This document shows positions 10,627-57,834 of a DNA stretch of 64,000 nt, one piece after another (the first letter of the stretch is position 1; the number at the start of each line of letters is the position of its first letter). The position numbers and the translations under genes are program-made. This DNA comes from Candidatus Marinacidobacterales bacterium. Lineage in GTDB: Bacteria > Acidobacteriota > Vicinamibacteria > Marinacidobacterales > DATDRI01. A model generated the notes under the pieces. It searched no databases, was not told where the DNA came from, and was given only the letters and a program-made list of their open reading frames with translations. The DNA lies in assembly GCA_965219415.1 (NCBI GenBank), contig CBDCNP010000002.1:5056001-5120000 (forward strand), given 5' to 3'.

Positions 10627-10700
10627 TGGCTGGGAAGCAGGGATTCGAACCCCGATTCCGTGGTCCAGAGCCACGTGTCCTACCATTGGACGACTTCCCA
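10627..10700 (-). tRNA. tRNA-Gln (CTG)
   Basis: Reverse complement folds as a 74-nt cloverleaf TGGGAAG..CTCTGGA..GGTTCGAATCC..CTTCCCAGCCA with anticodon CTG and encoded CCA. Confidence 0.95.
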
Positions 10701-16084: not shown

Positions 16085-16445
16085 CGTCCTGTGCCAAAAC
16101 TCGGCCCTTTTGAAATAGGCCATAAATCAGCAGCTTAGTGTCTGTGTTTGCGACCGGGCCAAGGGCCGTGGGCTTTACAATCGTCTTGGGCGGGCGGGTC
16201 GTCACCATGCAGATGACCAGGTGCTTCCGCCATAAACTGTTGGCAGCCGAGCTCTAACCCGTGTATGTGGTAGAGTTTGAGCTTGAATTTGAGAGACGCA
16301 GTTCTTTCTGCGATGCCGGCTGGGCTGACCACACGGTGGCTGACGTCCAGGGACATCTTCGTGTTCACGCCGACATTCTTATTTATGGTGTTTGCCGACG
16401 CAGGCAGGCCAACTGACACTAGCATTCAAACGCGGCGTAGCAACA

Positions 16446-17888
16446 TATCTGGACTCCTCTAGTCAAGCCCCTTTCTTTCTAGTCACGCCCCTTTCTTAAT
16501 AAATCTTCCATCGAAGCTGCGCATCCATCGCGTCGTGACGAGTGGGTCAGACTGCAAACGTATCTTCGGCCTCAGTGAGGAGCGTCTTGGGTGCTCCGGG
16601 CCATGATGGAAAATCCGCGCGCGAGGAGCCAATCACTTTGAACGACCTCTTAGGGCCAGTGTTGCTATTGGCTTGACCCCGCGCCGGTCCGACCGGTACG
16701 CCATCAGTTGGATGGGTATCGTCGCAGCCTCTTTTGGAAGGGAAAAAGGAAAACACGAAAGTGGAGCCTCTAAATCTAAGCGGCCACCGGCGACTGGAAT
16801 TCACTCTCGCGGGTGGAGACGGCCCAGACGATCCGGGCGAGTTTGTTGGCGACAGCAATCACGGCCTTGTTGTGTCCCCGCGAGCGGTGGACCTTCCGAG
16901 CCCAGGCGCGGAGCTTGTCGGGCGGGCTCTTGCTGACGTTCGCCGCGCGGAGCACGGCGCGCCCGCCCTGGGTGAGGAGCATACGGAGGTAGGAGTCGCC
17001 ACGCTTGGTGATGCGTCCGAGGCGGCGAATGTCGCCACTGGAGTTTTCCTTGGGAACTAGGCCGAGGTAGCTCGAGAAGCGGCGCCCCGATGGGAAGCGG
17101 CGAAGATCGCCGACGAAGCCCACGATGGCGGTCGCGGCCAGAAGTCCGATGCCGGGAATGGCGAGAAGTCGTTGGACTTCAGGAAGCTGCTTGGTGAGCG
17201 CCTTGAGCTCGTGCTCGATGCTAGCGCACTTGTCCTTGAGTTCTCGAATCTCGGAGCAGGCATCACGGAGATGCGAACGGAGCACGTCGGGCAAATCAGA
17301 ATCAGCGTCTTCGACGAGTTCGAAGAGGGCGGGCACGACGAAGTGAGCGCCCTTTGGGATGATGAATCCGAGTTCGCGCAGGAGCCCGCGTACGGCATTG
17401 ATGCGTGCGGTCCGTGTGGAGAGCCATCCTGAGCGCAGGCGATGGAGCGCAGCGAGGGTGTGCTGGTGCACGGACTTGATGGGTACGGGAAGAAGCTCCT
17501 CGTTCCTGTAGGCCTCGAGCAACGCCTTCGTGTCGGCGCGGTCGTTCTTGCTCCCGCGTCGATACGGCCTCACGAGGTGAGGTGGGAGCAGGACGACGTC
17601 GTGTCCCAACCTTCGGAACGTCCTTGCCCAGAAGTGAGCCGAGCCGCAGGCTTCGAGAAGCACGGTGGCAGCGCTCTGTTTGGCAAAGAACGACACCAAT
17701 TTGGGTCGACTCACACGGAGTTGCTTGGACACCTTCCCCGCTTCTCCCGAGATGGCAATCTCGAAGACGTTCTTTGCAAGATCCACAGCGATTGTCGTAT
17801 CTTTCATTCGGACTCCTCCTTTTCGATGCGTATTCGACTGACTTTGGCACATCGATGCCGTCTATGTCAGTGGAGGAGTCCATTCCAT
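16446..17888 (-). mobile_element. IS110 family (IS1111 type), copy 1
   Basis: 1443 bp; subterminal IR TGGACTCCTC/GAGGAGTCCA; TG core at both junctions. Confidence 0.93.
16776..17807 (-). CDS. IS110 transposase/bridge recombinase
   Basis: AVDLAK, LLEACG, KNDRAD (DEDD); PGIG..ENSSG; AGGAGG RBS. Confidence 0.93.
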   Translation of the reverse strand: MKDTTIAVDLAKNVFEIAISGEAGKVSKQLRVSRPKLVSFFAKQSAATVLLEACGSAHFWARTFRRLGHDVVLLPPHLVRPYRRGSKNDRADTKALLEAYRNEELLPVPIKSVHQHTLAALHRLRSGWLSTRTARINAVRGLLRELGFIIPKGAHFVVPALFELVEDADSDLPDVLRSHLRDACSEIRELKDKCASIEHELKALTKQLPEVQRLLAIPGIGLLAATAIVGFVGDLRRFPSGRRFSSYLGLVPKENSSGDIRRLGRITKRGDSYLRMLLTQGGRAVLRAANVSKSPPDKLRAWARKVHRSRGHNKAVIAVANKLARIVWAVSTRESEFQSPVAA

Positions 17889-18004: not shown

Positions 18005-19423
18005 ATGGCGAGTAAAGAGAAATTGCAGGCGTTTGTTGACGGATTTTGGGACGACGAGATCCTTCCCACCATCCAGGACTACATTCGCGTTCCCAACGTA
18101 TCTCCGGTGTTCGATCCCGACTGGGAACAAAACGGGCACATGGAGAAGGCGCACGAGCTTGCAAAGCGCTGGGTGGAGACGCATAAACCCGAAGGCTCGA
18201 CGCTCCACGTGGGGCGGTTGCCCGGTCGCACCCCGCTGCTGCTGTTAGAAGTGCCCGGAAAGAGCGATCGGACGGTTGTCATGTACGGGCATCTGGATAA
18301 ACAGCCGGAAATGACGGGGTGGCGTGATGGGCTCGGCCCTTGGGAGCCGGTAATGGAGGGCGAGAAACTCTATGGTCGTGGCGGGGCCGATGACGGCTAC
18401 GCAGTTTTCGCCTCGGTCTGTGCCCTACACGCGCTTCGTGCCCAGAATCTGGACCACGCGCGGGTGGTTGCCATCATCGAGTTCTCTGAGGAGAGCGGCT
18501 CTCCGGACCTTCCTGCTTACGTGGATCATTTCGAGGAACTGCTCGGCCAGCCCGAGCTCGTCGTTTGCCTGGATTCGGGAGCCGGCAATTACGATCAGTT
18601 CTGGTCTACGATCTCGCTGCGTGGGCTAGTGGGCGGCAAATTGAAGGTGCAGGTGCTTCAGGAAGGCGTCCATTCCGGCGATGCGAGCGGTATCGTCCCA
18701 TCCTCCTTCCGACTGTTTCGACCGTTGCTGGATCGTTTGGAAGATGCCGCGACGGGCCGGGTTCTGCCCGACGCCCTTCGTGTCGACATCCCCGCGCAGC
18801 GGGTCGAACAAGCGCGCCGGGTCGCCGAAGTTCTGAAAGACGGAGTGTACAGCAAGTTTCCGTGGATGAGTGGGATGAGGCCGGTCGAAGAAGATCCGAC
18901 CGAGCTCATCTTGAATCGCACTTGGCGACCCCAACTCGAGATCACCGGCCAGGACGGAATTCCCCCCGTGCAAAAGGCCGGCAATGTGCTGAGGCCCTAC
19001 ACGACCCTCAATCTGTCGCTACGGCTCCCGCCCACTCTCGCAACCGAGAAGGCGAAAGCCGTGGTGAAGGAACTTCTGGAAAAGGATCCGCCATACGGAG
19101 CCCATGTATCCGTCGAGTTCAACGAGCCGGCACAAGGTTGGAGCGCACCCGAGCTTTCTCCATGGCTCGGTCAGGCGATCGGGGAGGCCTCGGAGACTTT
19201 TTACGGAAAACCCGCCATGCACATGGGCGAGGGAGGCTCGATACCTTTCATGGGGATGTTGGGCGAGAAGTTCCCCAGCGCCCAGTTCGTGATCACCGGT
19301 GTACTGGGCCCCCAAAGCAACGCCCACGGACCCAACGAGTTCTTACACGTCGGGTACGCCAAGAAGCTCACCGCGTGTACGGCGCATATTCTGGGGAAAC
19401 ACCTGGAGAGCTCGGGGCGCTAG
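18005..19423 (+). CDS. M20 family metallo-dipeptidase
   Basis: YGHLDKQP, GRGGADDG, EESGS, HSG, NAHGPNE. Confidence 0.9.
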   Translation: MASKEKLQAFVDGFWDDEILPTIQDYIRVPNVSPVFDPDWEQNGHMEKAHELAKRWVETHKPEGSTLHVGRLPGRTPLLLLEVPGKSDRTVVMYGHLDKQPEMTGWRDGLGPWEPVMEGEKLYGRGGADDGYAVFASVCALHALRAQNLDHARVVAIIEFSEESGSPDLPAYVDHFEELLGQPELVVCLDSGAGNYDQFWSTISLRGLVGGKLKVQVLQEGVHSGDASGIVPSSFRLFRPLLDRLEDAATGRVLPDALRVDIPAQRVEQARRVAEVLKDGVYSKFPWMSGMRPVEEDPTELILNRTWRPQLEITGQDGIPPVQKAGNVLRPYTTLNLSLRLPPTLATEKAKAVVKELLEKDPPYGAHVSVEFNEPAQGWSAPELSPWLGQAIGEASETFYGKPAMHMGEGGSIPFMGMLGEKFPSAQFVITGVLGPQSNAHGPNEFLHVGYAKKLTACTAHILGKHLESSGR

Positions 19424-19602
19424 ACGGACACCCGCCGCGGTAGCCCCAGCCTCGATTCTGGACCCCGTCCTGTGCCAAAACTCAGCCCTTTTGAATAGGC
19501 CGGTGCTTCCGCCATCAAGTGATGGAATGGACTCCTCCACTGACATAGACGGCATCGATGTGCCAAAGTCAGTCGAATACGCATCGAAAAGGAGGAGTCC
19601 GA

Positions 19603-20634
19603 ATGAAAGATACGACAATCGCTGTGGATCTTGCAAAGAACGTCTTCGAGATTGCCATCTCGGGAGAAGCGGGGAAGGTGTCCAAGCAACTCCGTGTGAG
19701 TCGACCCAAATTGGTGTCGTTCTTTGCCAAACAGAGCGCTGCCACCGTGCTTCTCGAAGCCTGCGGCTCGGCTCACTTCTGGGCAAGGACGTTCCGAAGG
19801 TTGGGACACGACGTCGTCCTGCTCCCACCTCACCTCGTGAGGCCGTATCGACGCGGGAGCAAGAACGACCGCGCCGACACGAAGGCGTTGCTCGAGGCCT
19901 ACAGGAACGAGGAGCTTCTTCCCGTACCCATCAAGTCCGTGCACCAGCACACCCTCGCTGCGCTCCATCGCCTGCGCTCAGGATGGCTCTCCACACGGAC
20001 CGCACGCATCAATGCCGTACGCGGGCTCCTGCGCGAACTCGGATTCATCATCCCAAAGGGCGCTCACTTCGTCGTGCCCGCCCTCTTCGAACTCGTCGAA
20101 GACGCTGATTCTGATTTGCCCGACGTGCTCCGTTCGCATCTCCGTGATGCCTGCTCCGAGATTCGAGAACTCAAGGACAAGTGCGCTAGCATCGAGCACG
20201 AGCTCAAGGCGCTCACCAAGCAGCTTCCTGAAGTCCAACGACTTCTCGCCATTCCCGGCATCGGACTTCTGGCCGCGACCGCCATCGTGGGCTTCGTCGG
20301 CGATCTTCGCCGCTTCCCATCGGGGCGCCGCTTCTCGAGCTACCTCGGCCTAGTTCCCAAGGAAAACTCCAGTGGCGACATTCGCCGCCTCGGACGCATC
20401 ACCAAGCGTGGCGACTCCTACCTCCGTATGCTCCTCACCCAGGGCGGGCGCGCCGTGCTCCGCGCGGCGAACGTCAGCAAGAGCCCGCCCGACAAGCTCC
20501 GCGCCTGGGCTCGGAAGGTCCACCGCTCGCGGGGACACAACAAGGCCGTGATTGCTGTCGCCAACAAACTCGCCCGGATCGTCTGGGCCGTCTCCACCCG
20601 CGAGAGTGAATTCCAGTCGCCGGTGGCCGCTTAG
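19603..20634 (+). CDS. IS110 transposase/bridge recombinase
   Basis: Same protein as copy 1 (343 aa from MKDTT). Confidence 0.93.
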   Translation: MKDTTIAVDLAKNVFEIAISGEAGKVSKQLRVSRPKLVSFFAKQSAATVLLEACGSAHFWARTFRRLGHDVVLLPPHLVRPYRRGSKNDRADTKALLEAYRNEELLPVPIKSVHQHTLAALHRLRSGWLSTRTARINAVRGLLRELGFIIPKGAHFVVPALFELVEDADSDLPDVLRSHLRDACSEIRELKDKCASIEHELKALTKQLPEVQRLLAIPGIGLLAATAIVGFVGDLRRFPSGRRFSSYLGLVPKENSSGDIRRLGRITKRGDSYLRMLLTQGGRAVLRAANVSKSPPDKLRAWARKVHRSRGHNKAVIAVANKLARIVWAVSTRESEFQSPVAA

Positions 20635-20689
20635 ATTTAGAGGCTCCACTTTCGTGTTTTCCTTTTTCCCTTCCAAAAGAGGCTGCGAC

Positions 20690-20890
20690 GATACCCATCC
20701 AACTGATGGCGTACCGGTCGGACCGGCGCGGGGTCAAGCCAATAGCAACACTGGCCCTAAGAGGTCGTTCAAAGTGATTGGCTCCTCGCGCGCGGATTTT
20801 CCATCATGGCCCGGAGCACCCAAGACGCTCCTCACTGAGGCCGAAGATACGTTTGCAGTCTGACCCACTCGTCACGACGCGATGGATGCG
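20690..20890 (+). ncRNA. Predicted bridge/seek RNA in the IS110 right non-coding end (boundaries approximate; also 16520-16720 -, 50624-50824 +, 56466-56666 -)
   Basis: Loop 1 (stem AGCCAAT/ATTGGCT) holds AGCAACA and AAGTG, matching the target; loop 2 (stem GCGGA/TTTGC) holds TTCCATCA and AGATAC, matching the circle junction. Confidence 0.8.
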
Positions 20891-20969
20891 CAGCTTCGAT
20901 GGAAGATTTATTAAGAAAGGGGCGTGACTAGAAAGAAAGGGGCTTGACTAGAGGAGTCCAGATATGTTG

Positions 20970-21814
20970 CTACGCGGCTGTGGGCAGTGGTACAGGTGCG
21001 GAAGAGACCGGGTTGCGCGCCCTACTGAGCACGAAAACCTCGATCCGCGACCACAAAGGAATCGTCGTCGCCAAGAAGATGTCTCGAAAGGTGAGCCGTC
21101 GCGTGGTCAGACCAGCCTGCATAGCCGGAGTTCGGATCTCACGTCCGAACTTCAGAGCTCCGTGCGGTCGGACGAAGTTGTAATAGCAACGGAGCAACTC
21201 CAGGTGCTCATCGAGCCTCTCCGTCGAGCGAGTGTGGGAAAGCGTTCGTCTCGAAAGGTATGCCGAGCTTTGCCGGATGGTCAGATTTAACCGCTCGATG
21301 AACGACGTGTTCAATGTCGAAGAGTCCTCGGAGTTATTGAGCGCGTCATCAAATCGCCACGCAGCTCCGTGCAGCGCTCTGCGTTCGACCTTGATGATGC
21401 GATCGTTCCTGCGCGTCTTGAGGACCTGGCCATAAAGACACGCCGGACCGAAGAAGCGACGGATGACTTTCTGGTAGAATTCGAATCCATCCGTGACGAT
21501 CAAGGGAAGACGCTCGAAATTCATCCGTCTCGAAAGGTCGCGAAACAGAGCGTGAGTGTTCCGGTAGCTTCGCCTTCCCGTCGCCGTCGATGGCCAGAGC
21601 CGAGACCAGACTTCGATTGTAACGAAGACCCAACTCGGTGTCTTCTTGTTGCCCGCGAACGTGCGAATCTCGTCGGCTTGAAGCTCTTCGGCGGCGAAGC
21701 CAGCGATCCTTCTGTGATTGAATCGACGACACACTTGGGCTGCCTTCTCGAGCCAGCGGGCGACGGTGTTCCAGGCAATCCCTTTGATCCGGGAAATCGA
21801 GGAAATGCTGACAC
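20970..21814 (-). pseudogene. IS1-family-like DDE transposase, 5'-truncated by the neighbouring rve element
   Basis: ELQADEI, IVTDG, NTSFIERLNLTIRQ, YNFVRPH, TPAMQAGLT. Confidence 0.8.
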
Positions 21815-23098
21815 TGTGCATCGTCAAAACTGCTCCGCCCACGAAATCAAGGACTTACGCTCCGCTTGAATTCCGGGCCGAAGACGGCGAAACTCCGCCG
21901 CTATGCTCAACGTTGTTGTCTTCCTCGTCTCACTTGGGGTCCGTGCCATTCGGGCGATGTGTCGGCGCCGCGCCGACCTGGTGTTGGAGAACGTCGCTTT
22001 GCGGCAGCAAGTGACGGCGCTGAAGAAAGAGCGCCCACGGCCCACCGCTCGACGACACGGAACGGGCTTTCTGGGTTGCCCTTCGAGGTTCGTGGCCCGT
22101 GTGGGCGAGCCGCCTGCTCATCGTCCACGCGGACACCGTAGCCCGTTGGCATCGCGACCGATTCCGACGGTACTGGGCAAAGATCTCGCAGCGCCGCCAT
22201 CCCGGTCGGCCTCGGATTGATGCCGAGATTCGTCGCCTCGTCCGCACGATGGCGCAAGACGGCTGGGGGGCGCCACGCATCCATGCTGAGCTCACCAAGC
22301 TCGGTTTCATCATCTCCGAGAGCACGGTGTCGCGATACCTGCCGCGGCGTCCCGCGGAGCCCGACCAGCTGAAACGATGGATGGCTTTCTTGCGCAACCA
22401 TAAAGACGATATCGCCGCCATGGATCTGTTCACCGTGCCCACCGCGTCGCTCCGGCTGCTGTACGGCTTCTTCGTCATCGAGCACGGTCGCCGGCACATC
22501 GTTCACTTCAACGCCACGTTCCACCCGACGTCTGCTTGGGTTATTCAGCAACTGCGTGAGGCGTTTCCCTACGACACCGCTCCGAGATATCTCATCTTCG
22601 ATCGCGACTTCATCTTTAACGCTGCGGTCATCGAGTTCATCAAGGCAACGGGCACAAAACCCGTTCGCACTTCGTTTCGCAGCCCATGGCAAAACGGAAC
22701 CGCGGAGCGGTGGGTCGGCAGCTGCCGTCGCGAGCTCCTTGAGCACGTCGTGGTTCTCGGCGCATGTCATCTCATCCGGCTCGTGCGAGCTTACATCAGC
22801 TACTATCACGAGGACCGTTGCCACTTGGGGCTGAACAAGGACACACCGAGCTTGAGAACGGTCACGCACCGACCGTCTCCTACGGCGAAAGTAGTCGCAC
22901 TGCCGCGAGTCGGTGGACTGCACCATCGATACGAGTGGCGAGAGGCAGCCTGAGTCAGCTTGGTCGCTCGCGTTACTCGGCTGGTCGCCGAGAAGTTCGT
23001 CCTCAGCACCTTCCCTCGCGCGCTGACCACGCTCTCCAGCATGTGCTCGAGGGCGGTCCGGGCCCTAGAGTCCAGTCCCGGATTAATGATGATGGACA
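21815..23098 (+). mobile_element. rve (integrase-core, IS481-like) element with frameshifted transposase at 21903-22953
   Basis: Left end TGTGCATCGTCAAAAC, right end ..AATGATGATGGACA; ENVALRQQ, WGAPRIHAEL, DLFTV, SPWQNG, GGLHHRY; frameshift near 22046. Confidence 0.75.
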
Positions 23099-37544: not shown

Positions 37545-38268
37545 AGATTCGCACGTTCGCGGGCAACAAGAAGACACCGAGTTGGGTCTTCGTTACAATC
37601 GAAGTCTGGTCTCGGCTCTGGCCATCGACGGTGACGGGAAGGCGAAGCTACCGGAACACTCACGCTCTGTTTCGCGACCTTTCGAGACGGATGAATTTCG
37701 AGCGTCTTCCCTTGATCGTCACGGATGGATTCGAATTCTACCAGAAAGTCATCCGTCGCTTCTTCGGTCCAGCGTGTCTCTACGGCCAGGTCCTAAAAAC
37801 GCGCAGGAACGATCGCATCATCAAGGTCGAACGCAGAGCGCTGCACGGAGCCGCGTGGCGATTCGAAGACGCGCTCAATAACTCCGAGGACTCTTCGACA
37901 TTGAACACGTCGTTCATCGAGCGGTTGAATCTGACCATCCGGCAAAGCTCGGCATACCTTTCGAGACGAACGCTTTCCCACGCTCGCTCGACGGAGAGGC
38001 TCGATGAGCACCTGGAGTTGCTCCGTTGCTATTACAACTTCGTCCGACCGCACGGAGCTCTGAAGTTCGGACGTGAGATCCGAACTCCGGCTATGCAGGC
38101 TGGTCTGACGACGCGACGGCTCACCTTTCGAGACATCTTCTTGGCGACGACGATTCCTTTGTGGTCGCGGATCGAGGTTTTCGTGCTCAGTAGGGTGCGC
38201 AACCCGGTCTCTCCCGCACCTGTACCACTGCCCGCAGCCGCGTAGCAACACTTGATGGCGGAAGCACC
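37545..38268 (+). pseudogene. IS1-like transposase 3' fragment with right IR (IR tandemly repeated to 38298)
   Basis: Inverted paralogue of about 20970-21670; starts at the A end at 37544. Confidence 0.85.
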
Positions 38269-38424
38269 CACGTAGCAATATTTGATAGCGGAAGCACCCA
38301 GCTGCATCAACCGAAACGCAATGGTCGAAGCAGAACTCAAGAGGCGCAAATATGATGGATGGGCTCGCCAGGCGTCAACGCCAGCAAAGGCAAAGGCCCG
38401 GGATCCTTGGAGTATACTGCTGCG

Positions 38425-49455: not shown

Positions 49456-50898
49456 ATGGAATGGACTCCTCCACTGACATAGACGGCATCGATGTGCCAA
49501 AGTCAGTCGAATACGCATCGAAAAGGAGGAGTCCGAATGAAAGATACGACAATCGCTGTGGATCTTGCAAAGAACGTCTTCGAGATTGCCATCTCGGGAG
49601 AAGCGGGGAAGGTGTCCAAGCAACTCCGTGTGAGTCGACCCAAATTGGTGTCGTTCTTTGCCAAACAGAGCGCTGCCACCGTGCTTCTCGAAGCCTGCGG
49701 CTCGGCTCACTTCTGGGCAAGGACGTTCCGAAGGTTGGGACACGACGTCGTCCTGCTCCCACCTCACCTCGTGAGGCCGTATCGACGCGGGAGCAAGAAC
49801 GACCGCGCCGACACGAAGGCGTTGCTCGAGGCCTACAGGAACGAGGAGCTTCTTCCCGTACCCATCAAGTCCGTGCACCAGCACACCCTCGCTGCGCTCC
49901 ATCGCCTGCGCTCAGGATGGCTCTCCACACGGACCGCACGCATCAATGCCGTACGCGGGCTCCTGCGCGAACTCGGATTCATCATCCCAAAGGGCGCTCA
50001 CTTCGTCGTGCCCGCCCTCTTCGAACTCGTCGAAGACGCTGATTCTGATTTGCCCGACGTGCTCCGTTCGCATCTCCGTGATGCCTGCTCCGAGATTCGA
50101 GAACTCAAGGACAAGTGCGCTAGCATCGAGCACGAGCTCAAGGCGCTCACCAAGCAGCTTCCTGAAGTCCAACGACTTCTCGCCATTCCCGGCATCGGAC
50201 TTCTGGCCGCGACCGCCATCGTGGGCTTCGTCGGCGATCTTCGCCGCTTCCCATCGGGGCGCCGCTTCTCGAGCTACCTCGGCCTAGTTCCCAAGGAAAA
50301 CTCCAGTGGCGACATTCGCCGCCTCGGACGCATCACCAAGCGTGGCGACTCCTACCTCCGTATGCTCCTCACCCAGGGCGGGCGCGCCGTGCTCCGCGCG
50401 GCGAACGTCAGCAAGAGCCCGCCCGACAAGCTCCGCGCCTGGGCTCGGAAGGTCCACCGCTCGCGGGGACACAACAAGGCCGTGATTGCTGTCGCCAACA
50501 AACTCGCCCGGATCGTCTGGGCCGTCTCCACCCGCGAGAGTGAATTCCAGTCGCCGGTGGCCGCTTAGATTTAGAGGCTCCACTTTCGTGTTTTCCTTTT
50601 TCCCTTCCAAAAGAGGCTGCGACGATACCCATCCAACTGATGGCGTACCGGTCGGACCGGCGCGGGGTCAAGCCAATAGCAACACTGGCCCTAAGAGGTC
50701 GTTCAAAGTGATTGGCTCCTCGCGCGCGGATTTTCCATCATGGCCCGGAGCACCCAAGACGCTCCTCACTGAGGCCGAAGATACGTTTGCAGTCTGACCC
50801 ACTCGTCACGACGCGATGGATGCGCAGCTTCGATGGAAGATTTATTAAGAAAGGGGCGTGACTAGAAAGAAAGGGGCTTGACTAGAGGAGTCCAGATA
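49456..50898 (+). mobile_element. IS110 family (IS1111 type), copy 3
   Basis: Same 1443-bp element, inserted at the TG core of an IS1-like left IR. Confidence 0.93.
49537..50568 (+). CDS. IS110 transposase/bridge recombinase
   Basis: Same protein as the other copies. Confidence 0.93.
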   Translation: MKDTTIAVDLAKNVFEIAISGEAGKVSKQLRVSRPKLVSFFAKQSAATVLLEACGSAHFWARTFRRLGHDVVLLPPHLVRPYRRGSKNDRADTKALLEAYRNEELLPVPIKSVHQHTLAALHRLRSGWLSTRTARINAVRGLLRELGFIIPKGAHFVVPALFELVEDADSDLPDVLRSHLRDACSEIRELKDKCASIEHELKALTKQLPEVQRLLAIPGIGLLAATAIVGFVGDLRRFPSGRRFSSYLGLVPKENSSGDIRRLGRITKRGDSYLRMLLTQGGRAVLRAANVSKSPPDKLRAWARKVHRSRGHNKAVIAVANKLARIVWAVSTRESEFQSPVAA

Positions 50899-51366
50899 TG
50901 TTGGCGGCCGCCGCGTAACCTGTTCGCGTGCTAGAGTCTTAGCCTGATTTCGAGAGGCGCAGTTCTTTCGTCGATGCCGGCTGGGCCGAGTTTTGGCACA
51001 GGACGCGATCCCGTATGGTGCAAATAGTACGTCGAGCTCGCGTCGGCCTGTGGAGGGTTGATGACCGGATCTGCGCAAAGCGAGGATTCGATGGGCCGCG
51101 AGCCGAGGTCAATGCCACGACGATACGAAACCCACGGGGCGGCTCGGACGGCACTCGACGCTGGGCCCATCCGCGTCCTGGTCCTGGGGAAAATCGTCTA
51201 GCAAACGGTTGCCGAGACCCTGGTGATTTCTCCTGCACAGGCCTGGATCCGATGGCATCGTCAGACATATCGCCCCTTATCCAAGCACATTTGCCACGTC
51301 GGCTCGCTTGACCGGCGCATAGGCGCCCCGTAGGATACCGTAGGCCTCACCGAAAAGGAGCTTCCG

Positions 51367-53025: not shown

Positions 53026-53416
53026 GCGAGCCGATCGTGACTGCGTCCTGTGCCAAAACTCGGCCCTCTTGAAATAGCCGATAAATCAGCAGCTTAGCGT
53101 CTATGTTTTGCGATGGTGCCAAGGGCCGTGGGCTTTACAATCGTCTGGCCCGAGGGTGTTATCTTCGGATCCATCATGACGTACCATGTGCAATTCCTAC
53201 TGTTGGTCAGGCAGCCGTTGTTCGATCGGGCAGCCCTGCTGCTCACACAGACCTCAAGGGTGCTTCCGCCATTAAGTGTTGGTAAAATGACACTAAGACT
53301 TTACGGTGCATTAAATTACAGCCATGGTCTTTCAAAAGGGCCGAGTTTTGGCACAGGACGGGTTCCGATTGTACTTAGCCTTTCCCCTCGTGTCCAAAAG
53401 GATGCGTCCCTAAGGC

Positions 53417-53726
53417 TGTCCTGTACCAAAACTCGGCCCTTTTGAAATAGACCATAAATCAGCAGCTTAGCGACTGGGCCAAGGGCCCCCTAGGCTTTAC
53501 AGTTACCCAAACCCGCGGTCGACCTTCGAGAGCCGCGGCCGTTTCACCGGACGGCAGAGGACGGCGAACTGCTGCCGAAGAGCGACATTGTCGAGAGCCA
53601 GCTCGCGATGAGCCTTGAAGGCGAAGATGAGAGCGGGAACCAACGACGAAATCATGCCGACATGGTGCCGACAGACCGGAGACTAATCAAGTTCGGGGCA
53701 CCCGGATGAAATAAATAGAAGGCACA
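53417..53726 (-). mobile_element. Hybrid B/A-ended MITE (inverted copy of 62067-62373)
   Basis: Colinear with 62067-62373 from end to end. Confidence 0.85.
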
Positions 53727-53977
53727 CCACGTTGTCCCTTCCATTTAATCGATACGAATGGCGTCGTGTCCAAAAACACAAACGAACTCAAGACCCACGC
53801 GCCGGGACGTTTCGGAATCATAGGTAGGTCCTGGGGTTCCCGGCTCCCGTCCTGTCCAAAAACACAAACGAACTTGAGATCCGCGTGCCGGGCCGTTTCG
53901 GATTAGAGGTGTCTAGGCTTGGTTGGCCATGGAAGCTAGAATCCTCGGTCATGAGGATGCCTATTGGTCGTCGCCCT

Positions 53978-54143
53978 GGTGCTTCCGTCATCAAGTGTTG
54001 GTGAGATGACGCTAAGACTTTAAGGTGCATTAAGTTACAGCCAAAATAGTGCTCGTGACCTTCGCTGCGCGCTAAATGGAGCGTAAGCGCCTATTTTGCA
54101 AGGGGATACATACATATTACCAACACTTAATGGCGGAAGCACC
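53978..54143. mobile_element. 166-bp IS1-like MITE
   Basis: Near-perfect IRs; homologous to the copies at 32766 and 39231. Confidence 0.82.
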
Positions 54144-56064: not shown

Positions 56065-56391
56065 CGATCACTGCCAACCCGTATGGTGCAAATGGTACGT
56101 CGAACTCGACGTCGGCCCGTGGAGGGTCGATGACGGAATCTGCGCGAAGCGAGGATTCTATGGGCGGTGCTTCCGCAATCAAGTGTTGGTGGCTGCCGCG
56201 TAACCCGCTCGTGTGCTAGAGTTTGAGCCTGATTTCGAGAGACGCAGTTCTTTCGGCGATGCGGATTGGGCTGACCACACGGTGCCTGACGTTCAGGGAC
56301 ACCTTCGTGTGCACGCCGACATCATTGTTAATGGCGTTCGCCGACACAGGCAGGCCAGCTGACACTAGCATTCAAACACGGCGTAGCAACA

Positions 56392-57834
56392 TATCTGGAC
56401 TCCTCTAGTCAAGCCCCTTTCTTTCTAGTCACGCCCCTTTCTTAATAAATCTTCCATCGAAGCTGCGCATCCATCGCGTCGTGACGAGTGGGTCAGACTG
56501 CAAACGTATCTTCGGCCTCAGTGAGGAGCGTCTTGGGTGCTCCGGGCCATGATGGAAAATCCGCGCGCGAGGAGCCAATCACTTTGAACGACCTCTTAGG
56601 GCCAGTGTTGCTATTGGCTTGACCCCGCGCCGGTCCGACCGGTACGCCATCAGTTGGATGGGTATCGTCGCAGCCTCTTTTGGAAGGGAAAAAGGAAAAC
56701 ACGAAAGTGGAGCCTCTAAATCTAAGCGGCCACCGGCGACTGGAATTCACTCTCGCGGGTGGAGACGGCCCAGACGATCCGGGCGAGTTTGTTGGCGACA
56801 GCAATCACGGCCTTGTTGTGTCCCCGCGAGCGGTGGACCTTCCGAGCCCAGGCGCGGAGCTTGTCGGGCGGGCTCTTGCTGACGTTCGCCGCGCGGAGCA
56901 CGGCGCGCCCGCCCTGGGTGAGGAGCATACGGAGGTAGGAGTCGCCACGCTTGGTGATGCGTCCGAGGCGGCGAATGTCGCCACTGGAGTTTTCCTTGGG
57001 AACTAGGCCGAGGTAGCTCGAGAAGCGGCGCCCCGATGGGAAGCGGCGAAGATCGCCGACGAAGCCCACGATGGCGGTCGCGGCCAGAAGTCCGATGCCG
57101 GGAATGGCGAGAAGTCGTTGGACTTCAGGAAGCTGCTTGGTGAGCGCCTTGAGCTCGTGCTCGATGCTAGCGCACTTGTCCTTGAGTTCTCGAATCTCGG
57201 AGCAGGCATCACGGAGATGCGAACGGAGCACGTCGGGCAAATCAGAATCAGCGTCTTCGACGAGTTCGAAGAGGGCGGGCACGACGAAGTGAGCGCCCTT
57301 TGGGATGATGAATCCGAGTTCGCGCAGGAGCCCGCGTACGGCATTGATGCGTGCGGTCCGTGTGGAGAGCCATCCTGAGCGCAGGCGATGGAGCGCAGCG
57401 AGGGTGTGCTGGTGCACGGACTTGATGGGTACGGGAAGAAGCTCCTCGTTCCTGTAGGCCTCGAGCAACGCCTTCGTGTCGGCGCGGTCGTTCTTGCTCC
57501 CGCGTCGATACGGCCTCACGAGGTGAGGTGGGAGCAGGACGACGTCGTGTCCCAACCTTCGGAACGTCCTTGCCCAGAAGTGAGCCGAGCCGCAGGCTTC
57601 GAGAAGCACGGTGGCAGCGCTCTGTTTGGCAAAGAACGACACCAATTTGGGTCGACTCACACGGAGTTGCTTGGACACCTTCCCCGCTTCTCCCGAGATG
57701 GCAATCTCGAAGACGTTCTTTGCAAGATCCACAGCGATTGTCGTATCTTTCATTTGGACTCCTCCTTTTCGATGCGTATTCGACTGACTTTGGCACATCG
57801 ATGCCGTCTATGTCAGTGGAGGAGTCCATTCCAT
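56392..57834 (-). mobile_element. IS110 family (IS1111 type), copy 4
   Basis: 1443 bp; one substitution noticed just upstream of the ATG. Confidence 0.93.
56722..57753 (-). CDS. IS110 transposase/bridge recombinase
   Basis: Same protein as the other copies. Confidence 0.93.
   Translation of the reverse strand: MKDTTIAVDLAKNVFEIAISGEAGKVSKQLRVSRPKLVSFFAKQSAATVLLEACGSAHFWARTFRRLGHDVVLLPPHLVRPYRRGSKNDRADTKALLEAYRNEELLPVPIKSVHQHTLAALHRLRSGWLSTRTARINAVRGLLRELGFIIPKGAHFVVPALFELVEDADSDLPDVLRSHLRDACSEIRELKDKCASIEHELKALTKQLPEVQRLLAIPGIGLLAATAIVGFVGDLRRFPSGRRFSSYLGLVPKENSSGDIRRLGRITKRGDSYLRMLLTQGGRAVLRAANVSKSPPDKLRAWARKVHRSRGHNKAVIAVANKLARIVWAVSTRESEFQSPVAA

What the first reader, a model, noticed from the sequence alone, without database searches (positions are those of the whole stretch)
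20690..20964. IS110/IS1111 bridge RNA with readable guides programmed against another transposon's inverted repeat
Seen: all four copies are inserted at GGTGCTTCCGCCATCAAG-TG-TTG, the IR of the IS1-like element. Target read on the other strand: CGTAGCAA-CA-CTTGATGG. Predicted circle junction: CATTCCAT-CA-TATCTGG. In the 3' non-coding end, stem AGCCAAT/ATTGGCT (20737-20783) encloses TAGCAACACT (20743-20752, 10/10 to the target) and AAGTG (20772-20776, reverse complement of CACTT). Stem GCGGA/TTTGC (20792-20856) encloses TTCCATCAT (20799-20807, 9/9 to the junction) and AGATACG (20845-20851, 6/7 to AGATATG). Established: IS110/IS1111 recombinases use two-loop bridge/seek RNAs, and some IS1111 members target Tn21 IRs or attC sites. 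Inference: an active, reprogrammable RNA-guided recombinase with a target class (IS1-like IR) I do not recognise as described.
Basis: partly seen in the sequence, partly recalled or inferred. Interest (0 to 1): 0.85.

Follow-up and report, generated by a model that had tools for sequence, protein, structure and literature searches.

The report
RNA-guided IS1111 element targeting IS1-like ends
A 1.4-kb mobile element of the IS110/IS1111 kind carries a guide RNA whose loops match one end of a second, IS1-like mobile element, where it has inserted about 30 times in this genome; the mechanism is known, and this is a new and clear natural example.

Summary
The window holds four near-identical 1445-bp IS1111-type elements. 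Each has a 343-aa DEDD/Ser recombinase, 10-bp subterminal inverted repeats and a 332-nt 3' non-coding end. The genome holds 26 full copies plus fragments. All 33 left junctions lie 20 bp inside the terminal repeat of a 1.2-kb IS1-like element.

A 163-nt stretch (20703-20865) is a conserved structured RNA in relatives with 54-98% protein identity: 29 pairs, 95.6% paired, 11 compensatory. Its two target-loop strands are the most variable columns. They covary with each relative's own flanks (19 independent units, 0 of 100,000 permutations reach the observed score). In this genome, 25 of 104 guide-matched repeat ends are occupied, against 1 of 371 near-miss ends.

The RNA-guided reading is therefore well supported for the target loop. 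The donor loop rests on a 9/9 and a 6/7 match at conserved positions, with little covariation available.

The kind is known (seekRNA/bridge RNA, 2024). Targeting another transposon's inverted repeat has precedent (IS1383/IS1384; IS4321/Tn21). This is a new member, not a new class. Transcription was not shown. Earlier first-reader notes on other windows of this genome reached the same reading.

The parts
19502..19521 (+). Outer 20 bp of the targeted terminal inverted repeat of the IS1-like host element. This is the left target arm, ending in the TG at 19520-21.
   Evidence: identical or near-identical at all 33 left junctions in the genome. Sequence further out is unrelated between copies.
19522..20966 (+). 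IS1111-type insertion sequence, 1445 bp. One TG is ambiguous between element and target.
   Evidence: A contig in run X16 joins 19521 to 20966, which is an empty site.
19528..19537 (+). Left subterminal inverted repeat, TGGACTCCTC.
   Evidence: found within one mismatch at both ends in 25 of the 29 elements examined.
19603..20634 (+). Recombinase gene (343 aa plus stop), with an AGGAGG ribosome-binding site upstream.
   Evidence: One search gives the translation. NF033542 'IS110 family RNA-guided transposase' scores 302.9 bits against a cutoff of 140; PF01548 and PF02371 also match. D9, E52, D89, D92 and G249-L-x-P-x4-S257-G258 are conserved. The C-terminal domain aligns to IS621 (8wt6) and ISCro4 (9t56).
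20703..20865 (+). Conserved bridge/seek RNA scaffold, 163 nt.
- H1: 20719-23 with 20858-62
- H2: 20724-33 with 20784-94
- H3: 20738-41 with 20779-82
- H4: 20752-56 with 20763-67
- H5: 20807-11 with 20839-43
- Inner hairpin: GGAGC 20813-17 with GCTCC 20827-31
   Evidence: The inner hairpin was read by eye and not counted.
20743..20752 (+). Target guide 1, on the 5' strand of the target loop: TAGCAACACT. It is the reverse complement of AG-TG-TTGCTA, that is the core plus the right arm.
   Evidence: The homologous columns covary with right flanks. Mean column entropy is 1.34 bits.
20769..20776 (+). Target guide 2, on the 3' strand of the target loop: TCAAAGTG. It reads as the left arm plus core, TCAAG-TG, with one extra A. 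AAGTG is the contiguous part.
   Evidence: Entropy is 1.42 bits. The one-base bulge is read by eye.
20799..20807 (+). Candidate left donor guide TTCCATCAT. It is the reverse complement of A-TG-ATGGAA, the abutted ends.
   Evidence: It is nearly invariant in relatives (0.36 bits). It also pairs with the 5' lead TGATGG at 20704-09.
20845..20851 (+). Candidate right donor guide AGATACG. It matches 6 of 7 bases of the right end AGATA-TG.
   Evidence: AGATACG occurs in 20 of 21 aligned relatives. It is AGATATG in L041 (and in L044).
20913..20952 (+). 20-bp tandem duplication in the right end, containing the -35-like TTGACT at 20944-49.
   Evidence: The 98% relative L032 has one unit. The role of the -35 box in a junction promoter is inferred.
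20951..20960 (+). Right subterminal inverted repeat, GAGGAGTCCA.
20967..21842 (-). Remainder of the split IS1-like host element: the right target arm TTGCTACG and the transposase frame 20970-21842. Another repeat begins near 21814.
   Evidence: The intact 1201-bp reference copy is in L111.
16444..17888 (-). Second copy of the element. By offset from the 19522 copy, its RNA scaffold lies at 16545-16707.
49456..50900 (+). Third copy (scaffold at 50637-50799 by offset). Its right flank is TTGGCGGCC and does not match guide 1.
56390..57834 (-). Fourth copy (scaffold at 56491-56653 by offset). It has one substitution at element position 80.

Best explanation
Positions 20703-20865 encode the bridge/seek RNA of a 1445-bp IS1111-type insertion sequence.

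The RNA folds into an outer helix that encloses two modules.

1. Target module. A long stem leads to an internal loop. [quoted passage not shown] Together they read about 16 bp spanning the insertion point, 18-20 bp inside one terminal inverted repeat of a 1.2-kb IS1-like element.

2. Donor module. UUCCAUCAU and AGAUACG flank a conserved hairpin. They match the element's abutted ends (AGATA-TG-ATGGAA).

The DEDD/serine recombinase, loaded with this RNA, would bring the excised circle together with the target and insert it in one orientation without a duplication.

Shown here: the anatomy, the conserved structure, covariation of the target guides with flanks, and the selectivity among repeat-end variants in this genome.

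Inferred by homology to ISEc11/ISPa11 seekRNAs and the IS621 bridge RNA: RNA expression, binding to the recombinase, the circular intermediate and the chemistry.
For: Family: NF033542 at 302.9 bits, PF01548 plus PF02371, 343 aa. The 10-bp subterminal repeats were found in 25 of 29 elements examined. The long non-coding end lies 3' of the gene: 332 nt, against 81 nt 5'.

Structure: on 21 relatives with 54-98% protein identity, 29 pairs are 95.6% paired. Eleven pairs show compensatory changes. 0 of 500 shuffles reach this, and slid controls give 30-39% paired.

The guide columns are the most variable in the RNA, at 1.34 and 1.42 bits. The paired scaffold blocks are at 0-0.64 bits.

Covariation across 19 independent guide/flank units:
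- Guide 1 against the right junction: summed longest match 117. The maximum in 100,000 permutations is 103.
- Guide 2 against the left junction: 85 against a maximum of 80.
- Three further elements looked at afterwards fit by eye: L054 on both arms, L051 and L098 on the left arm only.

Own genome: 33 of 33 left junctions are at the same site and in the same orientation. 28 of 29 right flanks begin TTGCTA.
- 25 of 104 ends reading TCAAGTG|TTGCTA are occupied, against 1 of 371 other repeat-like ends (Fisher 6e-17).
- With the left arm fixed: 25 of 104 against 1 of 114 (4e-8).
- The element's other end (..AATTAAGTG|TTGGCGG) is never hit.

The guide order, top-strand complement 5' of bottom-strand complement, is the order reported for IS1111 seekRNAs (Siddiquee 2024, Introduction and Results sections read).

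Donor-binding bases in a multiloop are reported for many IS1111 orthologues (Durrant 2024, passage read).

Recent activity: 16 of 26 full copies are identical and 8 differ by one base.
Against: No direct evidence of transcription or processing. Contigs from four RNA-labelled libraries cover only fragments and may come from contaminating DNA or from relatives. No sigma-70-like promoter was found inside the element.

The donor half is weakly tested. The donor segments and the element ends are both nearly invariant. Where the left end varies (ATGAGA, ATGGTA, ATGGGA), the candidate left donor guide often does not follow. AGATACG has a C where this element's end has a T.

CCAUCA also pairs with a conserved 5' lead UGAUGG, with compensatory changes. 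It may therefore be partly structural.

One full copy (49456) sits at a right arm with three mismatches to guide 1.

The repeat-end classes in the occupancy test are different host subfamilies, so they may differ in other ways too.

No Rfam family matches.
Confidence: 0.9

Rival explanations
1. Only the target half is RNA-guided. The element's ends are recognised by the protein, for example through the invariant subterminal repeats. UUCCAUCAU is mainly a structural strand paired to the 5' lead UGAUGG.
For: The lead/CCAUCA helix is 92.1% paired in 21 sequences. Column pair 7-104 reads GC 15, AU 5, GU 1. The left donor guide fails to follow left-end variants in several relatives. The short 82-nt ISEc11 seekRNA sufficed for movement in Siddiquee 2024 (section read).
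Against: The 9/9 match extends beyond the 6-nt helix. All 7 aligned representatives with left end ATGGAA carry TTCCATCA. AGATATG in L041/L044 matches their TG end. Durrant 2024 reports donor-complementary bases in IS1111 multiloops.
Confidence: 0.2
2. The shared insertion site reflects one or a few ancestral insertions, later spread by transposition or recombination of the host IS1-like element, and not repeated RNA-guided targeting.
For: Three copies share the outer flank GAAATAGACC and two share CGATGCAGAG. The genome is dense in repeats, so recombination is likely. The copy at 49456 looks rearranged.
Against: Right flanks fall into at least four host subtypes, and about 28 outer left flanks are distinct. 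Related genomes carry close relatives at the same site. Occupancy follows exactly the bases read by the guides. Relatives with other guides sit at other sites. The host repeat is split by the insertion, which should hinder the host's own movement (inference).
Confidence: 0.05
3. Site choice is made by the protein alone, and the matches in the non-coding end are incidental.
For: Taken alone, this element's matches are only moderately unlikely (14 of 2000 and 50 of 2000 shuffles).
Against: Covariation of both guide strands with flanks across 19 units. The guide columns are hypervariable within an otherwise conserved RNA. Reprogramming has been demonstrated experimentally in this family (Siddiquee 2024).
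Confidence: 0.03

Closest known systems
IS1111-family seekRNA elements ISEc11, ISPa11, ISKpn4/ISPst6 (Siddiquee et al. 2024, PMC11187229; sections 4, 6, 8, 9, 10 and 13 read)
   Same: The RNA lies in the 3' non-coding region. Subterminal inverted repeats are present. The transposase falls in the 330-350 aa range and has the GL-P----SG motif. The top-strand complement lies 5' of the bottom-strand complement. Natural retargeting occurs by replacing loop bases while the stems stay conserved.
   Different: The host phylum differs (relatives are labelled Acidobacteriota/Marinacidobacterales). The target differs. The terminal extensions are 8+4 (or 6+6), not 7+3. No experimental data exist for this element.
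IS621 bridge RNA (Durrant et al. 2024, PMC11208160, passages read; Hiraizumi et al. 2026, PMC13626964, abstract and Main read)
   Same: The logic is two-module: left and right guides pair with opposite strands and overlap at a core dinucleotide. The recombinase has a DEDD RuvC-like domain and a serine Tnp domain. The C-terminal domain aligns at E 9e-8.
   Different: In IS621 the RNA is in the 5' end and the guide order is reversed. Here the donor bases lie in a multiloop, not an internal loop. In most relatives of this clade the donor and target cores differ.
IS1383, which targets the inverted repeats of IS1384 (Muller, Lauf, Herrmann 2001; only the title was seen, in a reference list)
   Same: An IS110/IS1111-type element whose specific target is the inverted repeat of another insertion sequence.
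   Different: The host element family is different. The paper is not held, so its details could not be compared.
IS4321/IS5075, which target Tn21-family terminal inverted repeats (Partridge and Hall 2003; title seen in reference lists; paper not held)
   Same: IS1111 members with subterminal repeats that insert at a fixed position and orientation inside another transposon's terminal repeat.
   Different: There the target is a 38-bp Tn3-family repeat (length recalled). Here it is one end of a 1.2-kb IS1-like element.

Membership tests
IS1111 group of the IS110 family | DEDD (RuvC-like) N-terminal domain plus a PF02371 C-terminal domain; protein of 330-350 aa | tested here: met
   PF01548 at E 6.9e-12, PF02371 at E 3.2e-24, NF033542 at 302.9 bits (cutoff 140); 343 aa. 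D9, E52, D89 and D92 are conserved.
IS1111 group of the IS110 family | Subterminal inverted repeats (7-17 bp per Durrant; usually 11-13 bp per Siddiquee) | tested here: met
   TGGACTCCTC at 19528-37 and GAGGAGTCCA at 20951-60: 10 bp perfect, and the same repeat in relatives.
IS1111 group of the IS110 family | The longer non-coding region lies downstream of the transposase gene | tested here: met
   332 nt downstream against 81 nt upstream.
IS1111 group of the IS110 family | Terminal extensions of 7 bp on the left and 3 bp on the right (occasionally 6 and 3) | tested here: not met
   There are 6 bases left and 4 right of the repeats, plus one shared TG. That gives 8+4 or 6+6. Empty sites of relative family F6 favour 8+4. 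This is a variation in length, not in plan.
IS1111 group of the IS110 family | GL-P----S(t)G motif in the C-terminal domain | tested here: met
   G249-L-V-P-K-E-N-S-S257-G258. L248, G249, P252, E254, S256, S257 and G258 are invariant in 23 sequences. The motif aligns with the SG of IS621.
IS1111 group of the IS110 family | Site- and orientation-specific insertion without a target duplication | tested here: met
   33 of 33 left junctions are at the same site and orientation. Only the TG is shared. An empty-site contig joins 19521 to 20966.
seekRNA / bridge RNA | A conserved structured RNA in the long non-coding end | tested here: met
   29 pairs, 95.6% paired, 11 compensatory, 0 of 500 shuffles.
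seekRNA / bridge RNA | Two loop segments complementary to opposite strands of the target, overlapping at the insertion point and covarying with the target | tested here: met
seekRNA / bridge RNA | Loop segments complementary to the abutted donor ends, covarying with them | tested here: inconclusive
   There are 9/9 and 6/7 matches. Both the ends and the loop bases are nearly invariant, and tracking is imperfect where they vary.
seekRNA / bridge RNA | [quoted passage not shown] | not testable with these tools
   Only contigs of public RNA-labelled libraries were available. They cannot show transcription.
IS1 family (the host element that is targeted) | Transposase related to IS1 InsAB (zinc finger, helix-turn-helix, DDE domain) | tested here: inconclusive
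   NF033558 scores 81.7 bits, E 6.3e-23, below the cutoff of 100. PF03400 scores 22.1 bits, below 24.1. Among the 12 plasmid tblastn hits listed, those with a named product are called IS1 (family) transposase, at 27-32% identity.
IS1 family (the host element that is targeted) | Terminal inverted repeats and a flanking target duplication (about 8-9 bp in IS1; recalled) | tested here: not met
   Inverted repeats of about 23 bp are present. None of 28 intact 1.2-kb copies has a direct repeat of 4 bp or more at its ends. 'IS1-like' is therefore the best available label, not a proven membership.

The most novel reading that the evidence does not exclude
This clade may operate with different donor and target cores, and with a masked donor guide.

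In the relative family F6, empty sites read ..CCA-CG-GGC.. or -CA-. TG occurs in 1 of 102 matches. Occupied sites read ..CCA-TG-[element]-GATA-CG-GGC.. So the left TG travels with the element and the right dinucleotide stays with the target.

The 3' target guide carries the target's core: CG in most relatives, TG here. The right donor segment carries CG in 20 of 21 relatives, which is the target's core and not the donor's.

Both junctions follow the pattern 'left arm plus its own core' on one strand, as expected if the strand exchanged first fixes the outcome.

A conserved 5' lead UGAUGG mimics the element's left end and pairs with the left donor guide. It could act as a built-in anti-guide.

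I did not see either feature described for IS621 or ISEc11 in the sections I read. No literature search was made for them.
Probability: 0.3. Interest if true: 0.6.

Novelty: new member of a known kind. Interest (0 to 1): 0.35.

Why it matters
This is a clean natural case of an RNA-guided insertion sequence that lives inside another insertion sequence. One genome offers 104 perfect sites and 371 near-miss sites, which makes a natural specificity experiment. The element discriminates between the two ends of its host using bases just beyond the shared repeat.

The relatives gathered here have the same scaffold but different guides and different repeated targets. They are a ready comparative set for working out the guide rules of IS1111-type bridge RNAs. 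These are less studied than IS621, and the set includes the behaviour of unequal cores. It also adds orthologues from Acidobacteriota to the pool of candidate programmable recombinases.

It does not change the known picture of how these elements work.

Tried and rejected
Rfam. Neither the gathering search of the whole window nor the permissive search of 20600-21000 gave a relevant family. The two weak hits (CRISPR-DR47, HOTTIP_3) are noise.

Rejected after comparison with relatives. Only the G-C, C-G and G-U pairs are constant, and they overlap helix H2.

RNA evidence. One run search and one laying of four RNA-labelled runs, X16, X17, X18 and X20. All are contigs. They cover pieces of the gene, 20713-20733 and 20825-20863. 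Two contigs skip the guide-bearing part (20733 to 20825 or 20837), presumably from relatives with other guides. This is no proof of transcription. The parts without cover mean nothing.

Internal promoter scan. 0 sites in 19400-21100. The consensus may not apply to this phylum.

Do the distant relatives also sit in IS1-like elements? A tblastn of the host transposase hit only 4 of 80 loci, all from the closest (Marinacidobacterales) group. The largest open frames downstream of 14 relatives did not look IS1-like by eye and were not scanned against family libraries. Family F6 targets a 16-bp repeat present 2 to 51 times per genome. The idea that the whole clade targets IS ends was dropped.

Empty sites for relative families F3 and F4. 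One search gave only one-mismatch hits at about control level. One search gave none. The unequal-core observation therefore rests on F6 alone.

Target duplication of the host element. None in 28 of 28 copies.

Literature for an IS1-family repeat as an IS110/IS1111 target. One search used the terms 'IS1111 family', 'terminal inverted repeats', 'target' and 'IS1 family'. 55 papers held at least 3 of the 4 terms and 15 were listed. One search searched IS1383/IS1384. Neither listing shows such a case. ISfinder and TnPedia could not be consulted. Supplements are closed. The supplementary target tables of Durrant 2024 and the source data of Siddiquee 2024 cover more than 300 elements and may hold one.

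Rows left out. The structure alignment A2 used 21 of the 23 aligned non-coding ends. L032 and L044 were dropped as near-duplicates. The permutation test used 19 units. L032, L041 and L044 were dropped because they have the same guides and target as the window. L074 was merged with L105. L051, L052, L098 and L106 lacked a detectable repeat at one or both ends. L071 and L076 had truncated flanks. The remaining loci entered only through family consensus flanks or not at all.

Full report
**What is there**

The window holds four copies of a 1445-bp element: 16444-17888(-), 19522-20966(+), 49456-50900(+) and 56390-57834(-). Three are identical and one has a single substitution.

Each copy carries a 343-aa open frame (19603-20634 in the copy under study). 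The protein matches NCBIfam NF033542, 'IS110 family RNA-guided transposase', at 302.9 bits against a cutoff of 140. It also matches Pfam PF01548 and PF02371.

The element has 10-bp subterminal inverted repeats (19528-37 and 20951-60). It has an 81-nt 5' end and a 332-nt 3' non-coding end. That is the IS1111 layout described by Siddiquee et al. 2024 and Durrant et al. 2024.

**Insertion site**

The window lies in an 8.05-Mb, three-contig genome. That genome has 26 full-length copies, 16 identical and 8 with one difference, plus fragments.

All 33 left junctions read GGTGCTTC(C/T)GC(C/T)ATCAAG-TG|. Beyond that 20-mer the outer flanks are unrelated. 28 of 29 right junctions continue TG|TTGCTA.

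The 20-mer is the tip of the terminal inverted repeat of a 1201-bp element. That element has about 23-bp inverted repeats and one long transposase frame.

Its two ends differ:
- ..CCATCAAGTG-TTGCTACG lies next to the transposase C-terminus.
- ..CAATTAAGTG-TTGGCGGCC is the other end.

Only the first end is ever occupied.

The host transposase is most like the IS1 family. NF033558 gives E 6e-23 but scores below its cutoff. Annotated plasmid homologues at 27-32% identity are called IS1 family transposase. None of 28 intact copies shows a target duplication. 'IS1-like' is therefore a label of best resemblance.

**The RNA**

I located relatives of the recombinase in 80 public loci. They run from 98% down to 54% protein identity. 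The nearest are labelled Candidatus Marinacidobacterales. The rest are other Acidobacteriota and a few other phyla.

All share the subterminal repeat. This let me place both ends of 25 of the 29 elements examined.

Aligning their 3' ends shows a 163-nt scaffold, 20703-20865 in the window. RNAalifold and a pair count on 21 sequences give five helices and 29 pairs. 95.6% of cells are paired and 11 pairs have compensatory changes. 0 of 500 shuffles reach this on any of the five measures. Slid controls give 30-39% paired.

The fold has these parts:
- An outer helix: 20719-23 with 20858-62.
- A donor module: an invariant 5-bp stem over a covarying hairpin, flanked by single-stranded UUCCAUCAU and AGAUACG.

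**Do the loops read the DNA?**

The two strands of the internal loop are the most variable columns of the RNA, at 1.34 and 1.42 bits. The paired scaffold blocks are at 0-0.64 bits.

In each relative, the 5' strand is the reverse complement of that element's own right flank, over 7-9 nt. The 3' strand repeats its own left flank, over 5-6 nt plus a core. Some show a one-base bulge, read by eye, as here: TCAA[A]GTG against TCAAGTG.

I tested this on 19 independent guide/flank units, using consensus flanks for multi-copy families:
- 5' strand: summed longest match of cognate pairs 117. The maximum in 100,000 permutations is 103.
- 3' strand: 85 against a maximum of 80.

The flanks are host DNA and are not inherited with the element. 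The association therefore indicates that the guides direct the choice of site.

Within this genome the same rule holds. Of 475 repeat-like ends classified, 25 of the 104 reading TCAAGTG|TTGCTA are occupied, against 1 of 371 others (Fisher 6e-17). With the left arm held fixed the figures are 25 of 104 against 1 of 114 (4e-8).

Taken alone, the window's own matches are only moderately unlikely: 14 and 50 of 2000 shuffles, and both together once.

The order of the guides, with the top-strand complement first, is the order reported for IS1111 seekRNAs.

**Donor side**

UUCCAUCAU matches the abutted ends 9/9. AGAUACG matches 6/7.

Both segments, and the ends themselves, are almost invariant in the clade (0.36 and 0.04 bits). 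Where the left end varies, the RNA follows only partly. AGATATG in L041/L044 matches their TG end, while the window and L032 keep AGATACG.

CCAUCA also pairs with a conserved 5' lead UGAUGG (20704-09). That helix is 92% paired, and five sequences carry a G-C to A-U change.

So the donor assignment is plausible. It also fits Durrant's remark that IS1111 donor bases often sit in a multiloop. It is not established here.

**Cores**

In relative family F6, the uninterrupted target is a repeat reading YCACCA-NN-GGCTGCTA.
- NN is CG in 23 of 29 matches in one genome and 12 of 20 in another.
- NN is mostly CA in a third genome.
- NN is TG in only 1 of 102 matches overall.

Occupied sites read ..CCA-TG-ATGAGA..GATA-CG-GGC.. 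in 18 of the 20 F6 copies whose right junction was read. One has TG there and one has GG.

So the left TG travels with the element and the right dinucleotide stays with the target. Donor and target cores are unequal in that family. In the window both are TG.

This explains the C in AGATACG as the state typical of the family, not a defect. It rests on one family. Attempts on two other families gave nothing.

**Expression**

This could not be tested. RNA-labelled public libraries hold only contig fragments of this element or its relatives. No internal promoter-like site was found.

A -35-like TTGACT (20944-49) lies 17-18 bp from the left end once the ends are abutted. It could form a junction promoter, as in other family members. 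This is inference.

**Comparison and novelty**

This is an IS1111-type seekRNA/bridge-RNA element. The kind has been known since 2024. Durrant et al. predicted bridge RNAs in 93% of catalogued IS1111 elements.

Targeting the inverted repeat of another transposable element has precedent. IS1383 targets IS1384 (title seen in a reference list). IS4321/IS5075 target Tn21-family repeats.

My two searches found no report of an IS1-family end as target. Supplementary target tables and ISfinder were out of reach.

Verdict: a new, well-documented member of a known kind. The natural specificity data and two mechanistic oddities are worth a follow-up. Four earlier first-reader notes on other windows of this genome gave the same reading. 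They are not independent evidence.

Noticed in passing
window 20704-20709 with 20801-20806: A conserved 5' lead UGAUGG has the same sequence as the element's left end (TG-ATGG). It pairs with CCAUCA of the candidate left donor guide. The helix is 92% paired in 21 relatives, with 5 compensatory G-C to A-U changes. It crosses the outer helix, so it would form a pseudoknot or an alternative fold. It may act as an anti-guide.
   Followed up: partly
L077-L100 and L109 (family F6); genomes G001-G004: The donor core (TG, element-borne) and the target core (CG or CA) are unequal. The left junction is TG in all 22 copies where it was read. The right junction is CG in 18 of 20, TG in one and GG in one. 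Most relatives carry CG in the 3' target guide and in the right donor segment.
   Followed up: partly
window 49456-50900 and right flank 50901-50940: This copy has the usual left arm, but its right flank resembles the interior of the host element's other end (TTGGCGGCC..GCGTGCTAGAGT). No empty site of this chimeric type exists in the genome. It is either an off-target insertion or a rearrangement between copies.
   Followed up: partly
window 20913-20952: A 20-bp tandem duplication in the right end duplicates the -35-like box (GTGACT, then TTGACT). The 98% relative L032 has one unit. This accounts for the 1445 against 1425 bp length difference.
   Followed up: partly
window, 17 sites (e.g. 15945, 16220, 32912, 38249-38298, 53259-54143, 63649): The window is very dense in IS1-like terminal repeats: 17 matches to the 20-mer within 3 mismatches. 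The genome has 481. Another repeat family starts at about 21814, inside the host element next to the studied copy.
   Followed up: partly
L111 (G000:C2:26141-27541), element 101-1301: The host element's 354-codon open frame has no ATG, GTG or TTG start before codon ~100. A zinc-finger-like N-terminal piece lies in another frame. This may be a programmed frameshift as in IS1, or an assembly error.
   Followed up: no
window 57755 (element position 80; equivalent to 19601 in the studied copy): The only difference in the fourth copy is G to A, two bases before the recombinase start codon. Seven other genomic copies also differ from the consensus by one base. Whether at the same position was not checked.
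   Followed up: no
window 10630-10700 (-): A tRNA gene (Rfam RF00005, 62.5 bits) is the only Rfam family at gathering score in the window.
   Followed up: no
same genome, other windows (earlier notes): Earlier first-reader notes report other IS110-type elements in this genome inserted in the A-tract frameshift site of an IS3-like element. If so, more than one RNA-guided IS here lives inside other IS elements.
   Followed up: no
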